A stretch of 64,000 bases of DNA from an uncultured Actinomycetota bacterium (GCA_963714145.1 OY970235.1:7571983-7635982); one strand, 5' to 3'. Shown: positions 42,279 through 45,110, counted from the stretch's first letter. Numbers and translations are program-made. The notes: generated from the letters alone by a model not told the origin.

Positions 42279-43592
42279 ATGGCCGCGGCGGGCACCGTGC
42301 CGCCCGGCGCCCGGCCCGCGCTGGAGAAGACGTACGTGCGCGACCTGCCGAAGCGGCTCGGCCAGCGGGTCGCCCTCTACGGCTGGTTCAACGGCATGCA
42401 CCGGGCCGGCGGCGGCCTGGTGCTGGTGATCCGGGACCGGACCGGCACCGTGCCCGCGGTCTATCGGGGCACCGCCGCGGCGGCCGGCGTGGACGGGCTG
42501 AGCCCGGAGAGCGCGGTACGGGTGGTCGGCACCGTGCGGACCGGCGCGGGCGCCCGGTTCGGTGCGATCGAGGTGGACGCCGAGTCGATCGACGTGCTGG
42601 CCCTGGCCGAGTCGCCGCTGCCGCGGGACGGGCAGTACGAGTCGTCGGCCCCGATCGAGCGGCGGCATCTGGACCTGCGGGGTCGCGAGCAGTTCCTGGT
42701 CTTTGCGGTCCAGACCACGCTGGAGGCGGCGGTCCGCGACTTCCTGCTCGGCAGCGACTTCGTGGAGATCCACACCCCGAAGGTCACCCCGGCCGGCTGT
42801 GGCCCTGGCGACCCGCTGGTCGGCGTGTCCTTCGATGGACAGTCGGCGGCGCTTTCCCCGTCCCCGCAGGCATACCTGCAACTGGCGATGGCGGCCGGGT
42901 TCGACCGGGTCTTCGAGGTCGGGCCGGCCTTCCCGGCCGGCGACGCCGGTCAGCCGCCGGCCGAGTCGACCCGGCTCGACCTCGAGGTGTCCTGGATCGA
43001 CTCGCCGGCGGAGTTGATGAGCCTGCTCGAAGACCTGCTGCGGCGGGCCCTGTTCGCGGTCCGGGAGGTGCACGGGGTGGACATCGAGGGCTGCTTCGGC
43101 ATCCCGGTCGAACTGCCCGAGGGCACCATCCCGCGGCTGCCGCTGGCCCGGGCGCTGGAACTGGTCGGGCGGGCCAGCCGGCCGCACGGCCGCTTGTCGG
43201 CGGGCGATGAGCAGGCCCTCTGCCGGTACGCGGACGAGCGCTACGGCCACGGCTACATCTTCCTCACCGGCTACGCGACCGAGTGGCCGTTCTCGGCGAT
43301 GCGGGACGAGCCCGGCGGGCTGCGCGGCTTCGTCCTGTTAGGACACGGGCTGGAGCTCGCCGCCGGCGCGCAGCGGGAACACCGGTACGGGCCGCTGCGC
43401 GCGCAGGCCGCTGCCGCCACGCCGGGCGAGGGCAGCCCGCCGGACTGGTACTACGAGATGTTCCGGCACGGCTGCCCGCCGCACGGCGGCCTGGGCATCG
43501 GGCTGAACCGGTTGCTGATGGGCCTGCTGGCTCGACCGTCCATACGCGACACGACCTTTGCCAGCTGCGGCCCGGGCCGGTCGCAGCCGTGA
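42279..43592 (+). CDS. class II aminoacyl-tRNA-synthetase paralog (Asp/Asn-RS type, OB-fold + catalytic core) with degenerate motif 2
   Basis: OB-fold N-domain (RVALYGWFNGMHRAGGGLVLVIRDRTG) and motif 1 FVEIHTPKV. Motif 2 reads FEVGPAFPAGDAGQPPAESTRLDLEVSW where FRAE....RHL.EF is expected. Motif 3 is PPHGGLGIGLNRLLM. Confidence 0.7.
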   Translation: MAAAGTVPPGARPALEKTYVRDLPKRLGQRVALYGWFNGMHRAGGGLVLVIRDRTGTVPAVYRGTAAAAGVDGLSPESAVRVVGTVRTGAGARFGAIEVDAESIDVLALAESPLPRDGQYESSAPIERRHLDLRGREQFLVFAVQTTLEAAVRDFLLGSDFVEIHTPKVTPAGCGPGDPLVGVSFDGQSAALSPSPQAYLQLAMAAGFDRVFEVGPAFPAGDAGQPPAESTRLDLEVSWIDSPAELMSLLEDLLRRALFAVREVHGVDIEGCFGIPVELPEGTIPRLPLARALELVGRASRPHGRLSAGDEQALCRYADERYGHGYIFLTGYATEWPFSAMRDEPGGLRGFVLLGHGLELAAGAQREHRYGPLRAQAAAATPGEGSPPDWYYEMFRHGCPPHGGLGIGLNRLLMGLLARPSIRDTTFASCGPGRSQP

Positions 43593-44740
43593 CCGCCGCC
43601 GACGCCGCGCCGACGTTGCTGCAGTTCTCCGGGGCGGCGCCGCCGGCGGAGACCATCCCGGCGCACAGCCTCGCCGTACAGACGGTGGCCGTGCTCGATG
43701 AGGACCGGGAGGCGGCGTTCCAGTACCCGCCGATCGGCCGCTACCTCGGCGACCCGGCGCTGCGCCAGCAGCTCGGCGCGCTGCACGGCACCGACCCGGA
43801 CGCGATCTTCGTCGGCAACGGTTCGCTGCAGGTGCTGGACCTGCTGGTGTCGCTGCTGCTGCGGTCCGGTGAGCGGGAGGTGTGGGTCGAGTCGCCGACC
43901 TACGACCGGGCCCTGGAGGTGTTCGGCCGGCACGGCGTACGGCTGGTCGGCATCCCGATGGAACCCGACGGCCTGGACGTGGAGGCGCTGCGGCTGCGGC
44001 TGCGGTCCGGCCCGCCGGCGTTCCTCTACACCGTCCCGGACTTCCAGAACCCGACCGGCGTCACGATGATGGAGTCGAAGCGGGAGGCGCTGATCGAGCT
44101 GGCCGCCACCTACGGCTTCGCGATCGTGCAGGACATCCCGTACCGGGAGCTGCGCTATCACGGCAGCATGCCGCCCTCGCTGGCCGACCTGGCCGGCCCG
44201 GCCGCCGCGGCCCGGGTGATCTCGATCGCCTCGCTGAGCACCGTGCTCAGCCCGGGCCTGCGGATCGGCTACGCGCTGTCCGACCCGGAGACCGCGCATG
44301 CGCTGGCCGCGCTGGCCGAGAGCACCTACCTGTCGCCGGCGCCGCTCTGCCAGGCGGTCGCGGCCCGCTGCCTGGCCGGCGACGTACTGCAGGCGGCGGT
44401 CGGCCGGATCCGGCACGTGCTGCGACCGCGGCACGACGCCGCGGTGACCGCGGTGCGCAGCCGGCTCGGCGGCGCGCTGGTCACCATCCCGGACGGCGGC
44501 TACTACCTCGGCGTCCAGCTGCGGCTGCGGGCCGACGAGACCGCGCTGCTGACCGCCGCCCGGGCGCACGGCATCACGCTGACCCGCGGCTCGGCCTTCT
44601 ACCCGCCGTGCTCGCCACTGCCTGCGGACCGGCAGTTCCTCCGGCTCCCGTTCCACGCCCTGGAACCCGACGAGTTCGCGCACGGCGTGGCACAGCTGGC
44701 CCGGATCTGCGCGCAGTTCGCCGGCTCGGCCCATTCGTAG
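43589..44740 (+). CDS. fold-type-I (class I/II) aminotransferase-like protein lacking the canonical PLP lysine
   Basis: NGSLQ, FQNPTG and VQDIPYRELRY (D..Y) are present. The S-x-S-K-x-x-x-PG-x-R-x-G box reads SLSTVLSPGLRIGY, with Thr in place of Lys. GTG at 43589 overlaps the upstream TGA (GTGA). Confidence 0.7.
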   Translation: MTAADAAPTLLQFSGAAPPAETIPAHSLAVQTVAVLDEDREAAFQYPPIGRYLGDPALRQQLGALHGTDPDAIFVGNGSLQVLDLLVSLLLRSGEREVWVESPTYDRALEVFGRHGVRLVGIPMEPDGLDVEALRLRLRSGPPAFLYTVPDFQNPTGVTMMESKREALIELAATYGFAIVQDIPYRELRYHGSMPPSLADLAGPAAAARVISIASLSTVLSPGLRIGYALSDPETAHALAALAESTYLSPAPLCQAVAARCLAGDVLQAAVGRIRHVLRPRHDAAVTAVRSRLGGALVTIPDGGYYLGVQLRLRADETALLTAARAHGITLTRGSAFYPPCSPLPADRQFLRLPFHALEPDEFAHGVAQLARICAQFAGSAHS

Positions 44741-44841
44741 CGCCACCGTGGCCGTGCTGTCCGCTGATCCTGCCTGGTAACGTCCACCGGCCGGGCGGTC
44801 GAGCCCGGCATCGTTACCTTCGGCAAGCAGGAGGTGGACAG

Positions 44842-45060
44842 ATGGAGACCGACGAGACCCCGACGTCCGGCGGGCAGGACGCCACCGGCGACTCTCCGGG
44901 CTTCCCGGACCGCCGCCTGATCGACCTGTCCCGCGACCCCACCCCAGGCGTGCCCGACCACCTGGCCCCGGACGACGCCGGTGACCGGCCGTTCATCGAC
45001 CTGTCCCGCGACCCGACCCCGGGCAGGCCGAACCACGCCGCCCCGGACGACGACGACTGA
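44842..45060 (+). CDS. 72-aa acidic peptide with an internal tandem repeat (..IDLSRDPTPG.P.H.APDD x2)
   Basis: Strong RBS GCAGGAGGTGGACAG before the ATG at 44842. Own translation: METDETPTSGGQDATGDSPGFPDRRLIDLSRDPTPGVPDHLAPDDAGDRPFIDLSRDPTPGRPNHAAPDDDD*. A terminator follows. In the ORF track it is hidden inside a longer off-start ORF (43882..45060). Confidence 0.5.
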   Translation: METDETPTSGGQDATGDSPGFPDRRLIDLSRDPTPGVPDHLAPDDAGDRPFIDLSRDPTPGRPNHAAPDDDD

Positions 45061-45076
45061 CCCGACCGTCCCCAGA

Positions 45077-45110
45077 CAGCCCGGCCATCACCGGCCGGGC
45101 TGTTTGCTGT
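45077..45110 (+). terminator. intrinsic terminator candidate (10-bp perfect stem cagcccggcc/ggccgggctg, 6-nt loop, then tttgctgt)
   Basis: Read directly. It lies 17 nt after the small-ORF stop. Confidence 0.55.

What the first reader, a model, noticed from the sequence alone, without database searches (positions are those of the whole stretch)
42279..45110. Coupled pseudo-enzyme-looking pair (aaRS paralog with degenerate motif 2 + aminotransferase fold without the PLP lysine) followed by a repeat peptide
The class II aaRS paralog keeps the OB-fold, motif 1 (FVEIHTPKV) and motif 3 (GGLGIGLNRLLM). Where Asp/Asn-RS have FRAE....RHL.EF it reads FPAGDAGQPPAESTRLDLE. The motif-2 arginine that binds the ATP alpha-phosphate therefore appears to be lost.

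Its stop overlaps (GTGA at 43589) the start of an aminotransferase-fold protein. That protein keeps NPTG, D..Y and the C-terminal Arg. However, the S-x-S-K box reads SLSTVLSPGLRIGY, with Thr in place of the Schiff-base Lys.

About 100 nt downstream, behind a strong GGAGG RBS and before a clean terminator, lies a 72-aa very acidic peptide. It contains two copies of IDLSRDPTPG.P.H.APDD.

Inference: both enzymes may have been repurposed. Possibilities are a ligand or tRNA/peptide-binding pair, an amino-acid-ligating activity with altered chemistry acting on the small peptide, or a regulatory module. Paralogs of aaRS are known to take on non-canonical roles, but I do not recognise this trio.
Basis: partly seen in the sequence, partly recalled or inferred. 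Interest (0 to 1): 0.7.

Follow-up and report, generated by a model that had tools for sequence, protein, structure and literature searches.

The report
Coupled dead synthetase–aminotransferase gene pair
Two overlapping genes in a soil actinobacterium encode copies of an aspartyl-tRNA synthetase and an aminotransferase that have both lost catalytic residues yet are still kept by selection, so they probably act as non-catalytic binding proteins; the small acidic peptide next door is an unrelated, widespread gene.

Summary
The AspRS-type class II paralog (42279-43592) has lost the motif-2 Arg and several other ATP-, aspartate- and anticodon-contacting residues. The overlapping aminotransferase-fold gene (43589-44740) has Thr in place of the Schiff-base Lys. 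The 72-aa acidic two-repeat ORF (44842-45060) is a real, conserved gene.

Both losses occur only in one narrow clade of uncultured Mycobacteriales, about 11 protein clusters, and always in both genes together. More than 100 relatives of each protein keep the catalytic residues. Those intact relatives sit in a larger, apparently uncharacterised operon: a Thr-rich repeat protein, AspRS-like, an unknown protein, AsnA-like, an FMN oxidase, the aminotransferase and a TauD-type hydroxylase. The window holds only the two dead members.

Both genes are under purifying selection (dN/dS 0.27-0.33, bootstrap CI below 0.5). The aminotransferase copy keeps 34 of 37 family-invariant residues, so the loss looks surgical. 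The synthetase copy has eroded only in its active-site loops.

The peptide belongs to a family of at least 497 clusters in Pseudonocardiaceae and relatives. It occurs without the pair, so the trio is synteny, not a module.

Best reading: an orphaned, co-degenerated pseudoenzyme pair kept as a non-catalytic ligand-binding or regulatory complex. The mechanism is inferred, not shown.

The parts
42279..43592 (+). AspRS-type class II aaRS paralog (437 aa), catalytically degenerate
   Evidence: The AlphaFold model has pLDDT 80 and pTM 0.81 and matches 3nel with TM 0.82. Identical to P0001, which NCBI names 'amino acid--tRNA ligase-related protein [Mycobacteriales bacterium]'.
42369..42599 (+). OB-fold (anticodon-binding domain homolog), residues 31-107. 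The Phe and Gln that stack on the anticodon in AspRS are Val and Pro here (residues 47-61, LVLVIRDRTGTVPAV).
   Evidence: Pfam PF01336 at 27.9 bits. Column comparison: intact relatives read xxF..GTVQ, this clade reads xxV/L..GTVP. The role assigned to Phe and Gln is from my own knowledge of AspRS-tRNA structures.
42759..42785 (+). Motif 1, FVEIHTPKV (dimer-interface motif), retained
42795..42881 (+). Eroded 'flipping loop' (intact GGSESGA becomes GCGPGDP) and QSPQxYKQ box (becomes SPSPQAYLQ; Lys is Leu)
   Evidence: columns 175-198 lost or variable. pLDDT is below 50 for residues 170-185 and 188-194. The whole segment is deleted in P0018 and P0020.
42930..42986 (+). Motif-2 remnant FPAGDAGQPPAESTRLDLE: Arg is Pro, Glu is Gly, Arg-His is Gln-Pro, and the adenine-stacking Phe is Ser. 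A clade-specific Arg (T-R-L) appears.
   Evidence: pLDDT is below 50 for residues 220-227.
43329..43385 (+). FVLLGHGLELAAGAQREHR. The invariant Asp of F-D-L is fixed as Val, while the QREHR box is kept.
   Evidence: column 352: D in all intact sequences, V in all 11 clade members.
43485..43520 (+). Motif 3, GGLGIGLNRLLM. The Arg is kept here but lost in 3 clade members (P0006, P0008, P0009).
43589..44740 (+). Fold-type I aminotransferase paralog (383 aa) of the LysN/KAT/MocR-effector type, lacking the Schiff-base Lys. Its GTG start overlaps the upstream TGA stop.
   Evidence: The model has pLDDT 93 and pTM 0.91 and matches LysN 2egy with TM 0.90, rmsd 2.1 A.
44231..44272 (+). SLSTVLSPGLRIGY. 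Thr218 stands in place of the PLP Lys; Ser215, Ser217 and Arg225 are retained.
   Evidence: K in 109 of 109 intact relatives; T, P or A in the 10 full-length clade members and the fragment P0203.
44048..44143 (+). NPTG (Asn154) and QDIPY (Asp182, Tyr185). The PLP-contacting residues are retained; the family-invariant Glu181 is Gln.
44741..44841 (+). Spacer with an inner hairpin, GCCGGGC-N6-GCCCGGC, and a longer predicted stem that pairs the peptide's GGAGG
   Evidence: dG -51.3, z -2.7. The upstream motif CCTGGTAACGTCCACCGGCCGGGC is shared with L094 and L001 whether the upstream gene is the AT-like or the methyltransferase.
44842..45060 (+). 72-aa acidic two-repeat small protein. A real gene, but judged NOT part of the module (a syntenic neighbour).
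45074..45105 (.). 14-bp GC-rich hairpin between the convergent peptide gene and the 2'-5' RNA ligase-family gene (45167-45877, minus strand). A likely terminator with a weak U tract.

Best explanation
SHOWN:
- The two genes are a lineage-restricted, co-degenerated pair of pseudoenzymes.
- They descend from an operon found in Burkholderia, Sphingomonas, Entotheonella, Thermoleophilia and others. In that operon an AspRS-like protein and a LysN/MocR-type aminotransferase are catalytically intact and sit with an AsnA-like ligase, an FMN oxidase, a TauD-type hydroxylase and a Thr-rich repeat protein.
- In one narrow clade of uncultured Mycobacteriales only these two genes remain, joined by a 4-nt stop/start overlap.
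- The synthetase copy has lost the motif-2 Arg, the adenine-stacking Phe, the F-D-L Asp, the flipping-loop Glu, the aspartate-recognising Lys and the anticodon-stacking Phe and Gln. Its scaffold, dimer motif and QREHR box remain.
- The aminotransferase copy has lost essentially only the Schiff-base Lys. Every other PLP- and carboxylate-binding residue remains.
- Both genes are under purifying selection.

INFERRED:
- Neither protein catalyses its ancestral reaction (no aminoacyl-adenylate formation, no tRNA charging, no transamination).
- They are made together and act as a non-catalytic complex. The aminotransferase-fold subunit still binds PLP or PMP, or an amino or keto acid, without turnover. 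The synthetase-fold dimer is its structural partner.
- The complex would be a ligand sensor, a sequestering protein or a regulatory module. Its output partner is unknown.
- The acidic repeat peptide downstream is an independent gene.
For: Catalytic substitutions:
- Confirmed against solved structures.
- Restricted to one clade, and to both genes of that clade on shared contigs: P0002/P0122, P0004/P0124, P0008/P0126, P0009/P0127 and P0020/P0130.
- Only this clade, one other protein and one fragment lack the motif-2 Arg among 150 representatives.

Origin:
- The clade nests inside the operon-type paralog clade on a long branch.
- The intact operon is seen.
- No other operon member lies in the 64-kb window.

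Selection:
- dN/dS is 0.27-0.32 for the aaRS-like and 0.30-0.33 for the AT-like between the closer pairs, with bootstrap 95% CI 0.19-0.46.
- Neighbouring genes: ACAD 0.19, T7SS-signal protein 0.39, CbiX 0.43.
- In the aaRS-like, the eroded loops have dN 2-4 times that of the rest of the protein (omega 0.37-0.71, rising to 1.4 against L002, versus 0.24-0.26).

Pattern of loss:
- The AT-like keeps 34 of 37 columns invariant in 109 intact relatives. The aaRS-like loses 19 of 75.

Structure:
- The AT-like model has pLDDT 93 and TM 0.90 to LysN. The aaRS-like model is confident except in the former active-site loops.

Gene junction:
- The 4-nt overlap is present in the window, L001 and L002.

Precedents from the literature:
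- HisZ, cited as a regulatory HisRS paralog (PMC9437257).
- AspRS IBI1 as a beta-aminobutyrate receptor (PMC10441740).
- The Lys-less Ser4 as a non-catalytic aminotransferase-fold subunit (PMC11726168).
Against: - There is no evidence of expression, of a physical complex, or of any bound ligand.
- No output partner, such as a DNA-binding domain or an active enzyme, is encoded next to the pair in the window.
- dS is compressed by the extreme GC3 (about 95%). Omega values are therefore only comparable between genes of the same loci, and the two genes evolve faster than the housekeeping neighbours.
- Three clade members have also lost the motif-3 Arg, and two have deleted about 30 residues of the aaRS-like core. 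This is also what progressive decay would look like.
- In L094 an 81-nt insert separates the two genes.
- All known copies lie in one syntenic neighbourhood, so retention has been tested in only one lineage.
Confidence: 0.5

Rival explanations
1. Relics in slow decay. After the rest of the operon was lost, the two genes became useless and are being eroded. Their apparent conservation reflects recent common ancestry, and in a 73% GC genome open reading frames persist by chance.
For: - The pair is orphaned from all partner enzymes.
- The aaRS-like has lost 25% of its invariant columns and shows in-frame deletions and further losses in some members, such as the motif-3 Arg in P0006, P0008 and P0009.
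- Omega rises to about 0.6 against the most distant ortholog.
- Long spurious ORFs are common in this window.
Against: - Omega is 0.27-0.33 with CI below 0.5 in three independent comparisons, similar to or lower than presumably functional neighbours.
- Full-length, in-frame homology is kept in about 11 lineages at down to 57% identity.
- The AT-like keeps 34 of 37 invariant residues, whereas random decay would hit them in proportion.
- New residues are fixed clade-wide: V352, A361 and A198 in the aaRS-like, D265 in the AT-like.
- The 4-nt overlap is kept.
Confidence: 0.22
2. Still catalytic, with altered chemistry. The AT-like works without an internal aldimine, for example as a PMP-dependent or substrate-assisted enzyme in the manner of the Lys-less dehydratases ColD and E1. 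The aaRS-like uses its remodelled pocket, including the new T-R-L Arg and the retained QREHR and motif 3, for another ligation.
For: - The complete PLP pocket is retained apart from the Lys.
- A clade-specific conserved Arg appears in the motif-2 strand, and several aspartate-pocket residues are retained: Gln201, Glu236, Arg366 and His368.
- Lys-less PMP enzymes exist (my own knowledge).
Against: - Thr, Pro or Ala at the Lys position is variable and provides no general base.
- The ATP site of the aaRS-like has lost Arg, Phe and Asp together, and its loops evolve nearly neutrally and differ in length between members.
- Two members delete the whole flipping-loop and QSPQ segment.
Confidence: 0.13
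3. The pair binds or modifies the downstream acidic repeat peptide, which would serve as scaffold, substrate or carrier in a RiPP-, pearlin- or amino-group-carrier-protein-like scheme.
For: - Wherever the pair has been seen with enough flanking DNA, the peptide lies downstream on the same strand: the window, L094, L001 and L002. The same is inferred from shared contig lengths for P0123/P0248, P0125/P0252 and P0009/P0258.
- A Lys-less aminotransferase-fold subunit working on a small acidic carrier protein has a precedent in SerTA.
Against: - The peptide family has at least 497 clusters; the pair has about 11.
- The peptide occurs without the pair in L095-L098 and in Thermocrispum, with unrelated neighbours.
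- A methyltransferase gene separates them in L001 and L002.
- The peptide carries its own conserved upstream element and RBS.
- Both 'enzymes' lack catalytic residues.
- Intact relatives of the pair are never seen with this peptide.
Confidence: 0.06

Closest known systems
HisZ (HisRS paralog, regulatory subunit of ATP-phosphoribosyltransferase HisG)
   Same: It is a class II aaRS paralog that is described as working as a regulatory subunit of another enzyme encoded in the same pathway rather than as a tRNA ligase (review PMC9437257).
   Different: HisZ derives from HisRS, lacks the anticodon-binding domain and partners an active enzyme. Here the parent is archaeal-type AspRS, the OB-fold is kept, and the adjacent partner is itself catalytically dead. 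No active partner has been identified.
Asparagine synthetase A / AS-AR and ErdS (known AspRS/AsnRS paralogs)
   Same: They derive from the same AspRS/AsnRS class IIb core (weak hits to asparagine synthetase A; review).
   Different: Those paralogs keep the adenylate-forming site (motif-2 Arg and the other catalytic residues) and are enzymes. AS-A also lacks the OB-fold. The window protein keeps the OB-fold but has lost the adenylation residues.
Arabidopsis IBI1 (AspRS acting as beta-aminobutyric acid receptor)
   Same: An AspRS fold is used as a ligand receptor for a non-protein amino acid (PMC10441740).
   Different: IBI1 is described in that paper as encoding an aspartate tRNA synthetase, whereas the protein here has lost its catalytic residues. 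IBI1 is eukaryotic and has no aminotransferase partner.
Ser4/Ser5 (SerTA) heterotetrameric aminotransferase of Serratia
   Same: An aminotransferase-fold protein lacking the catalytic Lys is encoded in tandem with its partner and functions as a non-catalytic subunit (PMC11726168).
   Different: Ser4 is truncated and pairs with an active aminotransferase of the same fold. Here the Lys-less protein is full length, keeps the whole PLP pocket, and is coupled to an aaRS-fold protein.
MocR/GabR/PdxR effector domains
   Same: These are the best NCBIfam matches (YczR 180 bits, PdxR 175 bits) and close structural neighbours (GabR TM about 0.8). They are aminotransferase folds used for ligand sensing rather than metabolism.
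   Different: The MocR proteins characterised so far keep the PLP Lys and carry an N-terminal winged-helix DNA-binding domain. The window protein has neither.
Operon-type AspRS-like / aminotransferase relatives (Burkholderia ubonensis, Sphingomonas, Entotheonella, Thermoleophilia)
   Same: These are the direct evolutionary source: 47-54% (aaRS-like) and 45-65% (AT) identity, and the same paralog clade.
   Different: They keep all catalytic residues and sit in a 6-8 gene operon. No paper describing that operon was found in five full-text searches.

Membership tests
Aspartyl/asparaginyl-tRNA synthetase (class IIb aaRS) | Class II catalytic core fold with an N-terminal OB-fold | tested here: met
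   Pfam PF00152 at E 2e-42 and PF01336 at 27.9 bits. Foldseek TM 0.82 to 3nel.
Aspartyl/asparaginyl-tRNA synthetase (class IIb aaRS) | Motif-2 Arg (binds the ATP alpha-phosphate), plus the following Glu and the Arg-His of the motif-2 loop | tested here: not met
   Arg is Pro, Glu is Gly, Arg-His is Gln-Pro. The Arg is present in 145 of 150 representatives.
Aspartyl/asparaginyl-tRNA synthetase (class IIb aaRS) | Motif-3 Arg | tested here: met
   GLNRLLM is retained in the window. The Arg is lost in P0006, P0008 and P0009 of the same clade.
Aspartyl/asparaginyl-tRNA synthetase (class IIb aaRS) | Asp/Mg-ATP residues: the F-D-L Asp, the adenine-stacking Phe, the flipping-loop Glu and the QSPQxYKQ Lys | tested here: not met
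   Asp is Val (all 11 members), Phe is Ser or Leu, Glu is Gly or variable, Lys is Leu. The residue roles are from my own knowledge of AspRS structures.
Aspartyl/asparaginyl-tRNA synthetase (class IIb aaRS) | Curated equivalog score | tested here: not met
   NF003483 at 254.6 bits versus a cutoff of 353. The B. ubonensis relative passes at 405 bits.
Aspartyl/asparaginyl-tRNA synthetase (class IIb aaRS) | Aminoacylation activity | not testable with these tools
   Needs ATP-PPi exchange and tRNA charging assays.
Fold-type I aminotransferase (class I/II; LysN/KAT/MppQ group) | Fold, with PLP-contacting Asn, Asp, Tyr, Ser and Arg, and the carboxylate-binding Arg | tested here: met
   PF00155 at E 1e-23. 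TM 0.90 to LysN. N154, D182, Y185, S215, S217, R225 and R352 are retained.
Fold-type I aminotransferase (class I/II; LysN/KAT/MppQ group) | Schiff-base Lys in the Ser-x-Ser-Lys box | tested here: not met
   Thr218. Lys is present in 109 of 109 intact relatives. The only Lys in the protein is K164.
MocR/GabR-type regulator | N-terminal GntR-type winged-helix domain fused to the aminotransferase-like domain | tested here: not met
   The protein is 383 aa with the aminotransferase domain only. Matches to the MocR models cover only their C-terminal parts, and there is no HTH hit.
HisZ-like regulatory aaRS paralog | Catalytically inactive aaRS fold forming a complex with a partner enzyme encoded nearby | tested here: inconclusive
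   Inactivity is inferred. The translationally coupled partner exists but is itself inactive. Complex formation is not testable here.
RiPP / pearlin / amino-group-carrier-protein system (enzymes plus a dedicated small peptide) | The peptide co-occurs with, and depends on, the modifying enzymes across genomes | tested here: not met
   The peptide is found without the pair in L095-L098 and Thermocrispum. The family counts are at least 497 versus about 11 clusters.
Anti-phage defence systems (PADLOC) | Match to any defence-protein model | tested here: not met
   No hit for the three proteins or their neighbours.

The most novel reading that the evidence does not exclude
The pair is an exapted receptor or decoy. 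After capturing two substrate-binding proteins from the ancestral operon, which may be tRNA-dependent, the lineage disabled their chemistry but kept their pockets. The pockets would sense or sequester the non-proteinogenic amino acid, or aminoacyl-adenylate-like antimetabolite, that neighbouring bacteria make with the intact operon. That would be a two-subunit pseudoenzyme immunity or sensing module built from an aaRS fold and a PLP fold.
Probability: 0.1. Interest if true: 0.75.

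Novelty: new variant of a known kind. Interest (0 to 1): 0.5.

Why it matters
Catalytically dead paralogs of aaRSs (HisZ) and of aminotransferases (Ser4) are each known. What is unusual here is that two unrelated enzymes from one operon lost their chemistry together and stayed translationally coupled under selection.

If the pair proves functional, it is a natural example of an enzyme pair converted jointly into a binding module. The contrast in how they lost activity is informative. The aminotransferase lost 3 of 37 invariant residues, including the Lys. The synthetase lost its ATP, amino-acid and anticodon contacts wholesale.

The finding also points to the intact parent operon. That operon combines an AspRS-like protein lacking the aspartate-recognising Lys, an AsnA-like ligase, a protein with a weak DALR-domain hint, sometimes a YbaK-like editing protein, TauD and JmjC oxygenases, an FMN oxidase, an aminotransferase, and a protein with Thr at every fourth residue. 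It looks like an undescribed, possibly tRNA-dependent, pathway and may be the more rewarding target.

If the pair is merely decaying, the finding is ordinary.

Tried and rejected
1. The trio hypothesis was rejected on distribution.

2. I looked for a conserved partner of the peptide. The gene upstream of it in Thermocrispum (an Exo_endo_phos protein) is not homologous to the one upstream in L095 and L098, so there is none.

3. The methyltransferase present in L001 and L002 was considered as the missing catalytic partner.
- It is absent from the window and L094, with no remnant in the spacer.
- Omega is no higher in the lineages that lost it.
- It is therefore not required.

4. A link to the upstream SseB and T7SS-signal genes was rejected. 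That cluster is present without the pair in L095, L096 and L098.

5. The metagenome scan with the aaRS-like protein returned only identical copies (L014, L015) and canonical AspRS genes, so it added no new clade members.

6. The TauD-AspRS-like 'fusion' in L099 looked like evidence for functional coupling. On reading the translation it appears to be a frameshift in a long-read assembly and is not used.

7. Five literature searches for the operon or for AspRS-like paralogs with aminotransferases found nothing specific.

8. PADLOC, and Pfam at relaxed thresholds, gave nothing for the peptide or for the operon's unknown protein beyond a weak DALR hint. The PDB sequence search for the unknown protein found nothing.

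Full report
**What is there**

The window is about 73% GC. Its aaRS-like protein is identical to P0001, which NCBI names 'MAG TPA: amino acid--tRNA ligase-related protein [Mycobacteriales bacterium]', on a 10-Mb contig. Two soil-metagenome contigs carry the same locus at 100% identity (L014 and L015). Three plus-strand genes lie at the flagged coordinates:
- an AspRS-type class II paralog at 42279-43592 (437 aa);
- an aminotransferase-fold gene at 43589-44740 (383 aa), whose GTG start overlaps the upstream TGA stop;
- after a 101-nt spacer, a 72-aa ORF at 44842-45060, preceded by GGAGG and followed by a 14-bp hairpin.

**Checking the substitutions in the aaRS-like protein**

Pfam finds the class II core (E 2e-42) and, just above threshold, the OB-fold. 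NCBIfam puts the protein closest to archaeal-type non-discriminating AspRS, but 100 bits below the family cutoff.

HMMER alignments to solved AspRS structures (3nel, 1b8a, 1n9w) place FPAGDAG--QPPAE opposite FRAEEHNTTRHLNE. The motif-2 Arg is therefore Pro.

A 40-sequence alignment shows that far more has gone. Of 75 columns invariant in 28 intact relatives, 19 are lost in this clade:
- the flipping-loop E-S-G-A;
- the Gln, Ser and Lys of the QSPQxYKQ box;
- the Phe and Arg of motif 2, the Arg-His of its loop, and the adenine-stacking Phe;
- the Asp of F-D-L, fixed as Val in all 11 clade members;
- the R-P-F-Y box;
- in the OB-fold, the Phe and Gln that stack on the anticodon in AspRS. The roles of these residues are from my own knowledge of AspRS structures.

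What is kept: motif 1, the QREHR box, and, in most members, the motif-3 Arg.

The AlphaFold model is confident overall (pLDDT 80, pTM 0.81, TM 0.82 to 3nel). The exceptions are exactly the former active-site loops, residues 170-194 and 220-227.

**Checking the substitutions in the AT-like protein**

The alignment to PH0207 and LysN puts SLST opposite SFSK. In 109 relatives the Lys is invariant. In the 10 full-length clade members and the fragment P0203 the position is Thr, Pro or Ala.

Only 3 of 37 family-invariant columns are lost: Lys218, Glu181 and Gly16. In addition, Gly265 is fixed as Asp. Asn154, Asp182, Tyr185, Ser215, Ser217, Arg225 and Arg352 are all kept. The protein contains a single Lys, at position 164, outside the Ser-x-Ser-Lys box, so no nearby substitute Lys is available in the sequence. 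The model is excellent (pLDDT 93; TM 0.90 and rmsd 2.1 A to LysN).

**Distribution**

Both losses are confined to the same small clade:
- aaRS-like: P0001-P0009, P0018-P0020;
- AT-like: P0121-P0130, P0203.

The two genes share contigs in that clade. At 50% clustering the clade collapses to two representatives among 1.84 billion proteins. Of 150 representatives with an alignable motif 2, only this clade, one other protein (P0474) and one fragment lack the Arg.

A neighbour-joining tree nests the clade, on a long branch, inside a paralog clade that is distinct from canonical ND-AspRS. P0010 is a partly degenerate sister to the clade.

**Where the pair came from**

Intact members of that paralog clade lie in a conserved operon. 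It was seen in Burkholderia ubonensis, Sphingomonas and three metagenomic lineages. Its gene order is:
- a ~125-aa protein with Thr at every fourth residue;
- the AspRS-like protein;
- a 360-420-aa protein with no family assignment;
- a short AsnA-like ligase;
- an FMN oxidase;
- the aminotransferase;
- a TauD/clavaminate-synthase-type hydroxylase;
- often a JmjC protein or a YbaK-type editing protein.

Streptomyces and Amycolatopsis carry only the TauD, FMN-oxidase and aminotransferase cassette. The window contains none of these other genes. The pair is therefore an orphaned remnant.

**Are they still under selection?**

I computed Nei-Gojobori dN/dS between the window and three orthologous loci (L094, L001, L002):

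| Gene | dN/dS |
|---|---|
| aaRS-like, closer pairs | 0.27-0.32 |
| AT-like, closer pairs | 0.30-0.33 |
| SseB-family neighbour | 0.10-0.15 (closer pairs) |
| Acyl-CoA dehydrogenase | 0.19 (window vs L001) |
| T7SS-signal protein | 0.39 (window vs L001) |
| CbiX | 0.43 (window vs L001) |

Bootstrap 95% intervals for the two focal genes span 0.19-0.46. dS is compressed by GC3 of about 95%, so only these relative values are meaningful.

Within the aaRS-like gene, the eroded loops have dN 2-4 times that of the rest of the protein. Their omega is 0.37-0.71, and 1.4 against L002, compared with 0.24-0.26 elsewhere. The scaffold is constrained and the old active site is not.

The 4-nt overlap is kept in the window, L001 and L002. 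L094 instead has an 81-nt insert with ATGA overlaps at both ends.

**The peptide**

It is a real gene. From GFPDR onward its core is almost invariant in eight genomes whose neighbouring proteins are only 46-75% identical.

It does not depend on the pair:
- A profile search finds at least 497 clusters, including Thermocrispum, Saccharopolyspora and Pseudonocardia.
- In L095-L098 it lies in other contexts, with neither gene within 6 kb.
- In Thermocrispum its neighbours are different again.
- In L001 and L002 a methyltransferase gene sits between the AT-like gene and the peptide.
- The sequence upstream of the peptide is conserved whichever gene precedes it.

Co-occurrence with the pair is therefore explained by synteny within one lineage.

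**Interpretation**

Shown:
- a co-degenerated, translationally coupled, selectively retained pseudoenzyme pair derived from a larger operon;
- an unrelated neighbouring small protein.

Inferred, at about 50% confidence:
- a non-catalytic complex in which the aminotransferase fold still binds cofactor or ligand and the synthetase fold serves as its partner;
- a sensing, sequestering or regulatory role.

Precedents exist for each half: HisZ, IBI1, Ser4, and the MocR effector domains.

Rivals:
- slow decay (about 0.22);
- residual altered catalysis (about 0.13);
- the peptide-directed trio (about 0.06).

None can be settled without biochemistry or expression data.

**Limits**

- There is no expression or interaction evidence.
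- Only four loci with DNA were available for rate estimates.
- The nearest intact relatives could not be inspected.

Noticed in passing
L003 8999-17407 (Burkholderia ubonensis LPHO01000078.1); also L005, L012, L013: A conserved 6-8 gene operon for which five full-text searches found no description. Gene order: Thr-rich repeat protein, AspRS-like, unknown 360-420 aa protein (weak DALR hint), short AsnA-like ligase, FMN oxidase (closest to MftD/LldD, below cutoff), aminotransferase, TauD/CAS-type hydroxylase, and sometimes JmjC and YbaK-type editing proteins. The AspRS-like passes the NCBIfam ND-AspRS cutoff but has Met, Val or Ala in place of the Lys of QSPQxYKQ. It is possibly a tRNA-dependent pathway.
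   Followed up: partly
L003 8999-9382; L005 9151-9522; L013 702-1091: ~125-aa proteins encoded upstream of the intact operons. They carry Thr at a strict 4-residue period (14-15 of 21-22 Thr have another Thr four residues on), for example SVTQAITEAVTADVTASATKSATQAVT. There is no Pfam family. They could be a substrate or precursor of the operon's oxygenases and ligases.
   Followed up: partly
window 44842-45060; L094-L098, L100-L103: The 72-aa acidic protein belongs to an unannotated family of at least 497 clusters, 46-108 aa long, with two (once three) copies of IDLSRDP[TN]PGxxxHxxP[DE]. It occurs in Pseudonocardiaceae and related uncultured Mycobacteriales. The core is nearly invariant, the neighbours are not conserved, and the function is unknown.
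   Followed up: partly
window 44741-44841: The spacer before the peptide gene is predicted to fold so that the GGAGG ribosome-binding site is paired (dG -51 kcal/mol, z -2.7). It has an inner hairpin, GCCGGGC-N6-GCCCGGC, that is also present in L094. This may be a terminator for the pair or a translational control element for the peptide.
   Followed up: partly
L001 12441-13163; L002 12437-13222: A class I SAM methyltransferase gene lies between the AT-like gene and the peptide in two orthologous loci. It is absent, with no remnant, from the window and L094.
   Followed up: yes
L094 2536-2622: An 81-nt insert holding a 27-codon mini-ORF separates the aaRS-like and AT-like genes, with ATGA stop/start overlaps at both ends.
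   Followed up: no
window 39230-41994: Upstream cluster on the plus strand: an SseB-family protein, a 100-aa protein, a T7SS-signal-domain protein and a second SseB-family protein. It is conserved in all related loci whether or not the pair is present. The stretch between it and the peptide gene is variable (the pair; the pair plus a methyltransferase; or phosphoglucomutase plus other genes).
   Followed up: partly
L008 7216-12483 (Streptomyces sp. NBC_01255); L010 7644-13461 (Amycolatopsis sp. CA-230715): The TauD, FMN-oxidase and aminotransferase cassette occurs on its own with TauE and BenE transporters in Streptomyces. In Amycolatopsis it occurs with an AsnA-like ligase next to an NRPS cluster that contains an NO synthase.
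   Followed up: no
L099 5616-8865: An apparent TauD-AspRS-like fusion and a split copy of the operon's unknown protein. The translation suggests frameshifts in a long-read assembly rather than a real fusion.
   Followed up: partly
window 47413-47485 (minus strand): A tRNA-Gly(CCC) gene lies about 2.3 kb downstream of the locus. Nothing links it to the aaRS-like gene.
   Followed up: no
L003 1904-4787 and 6872-7435: In B. ubonensis the operon lies next to a BilABCD-type ubiquitin-like conjugation system and an AcrVA2-like gene, which suggests a mobile or variable island.
   Followed up: no
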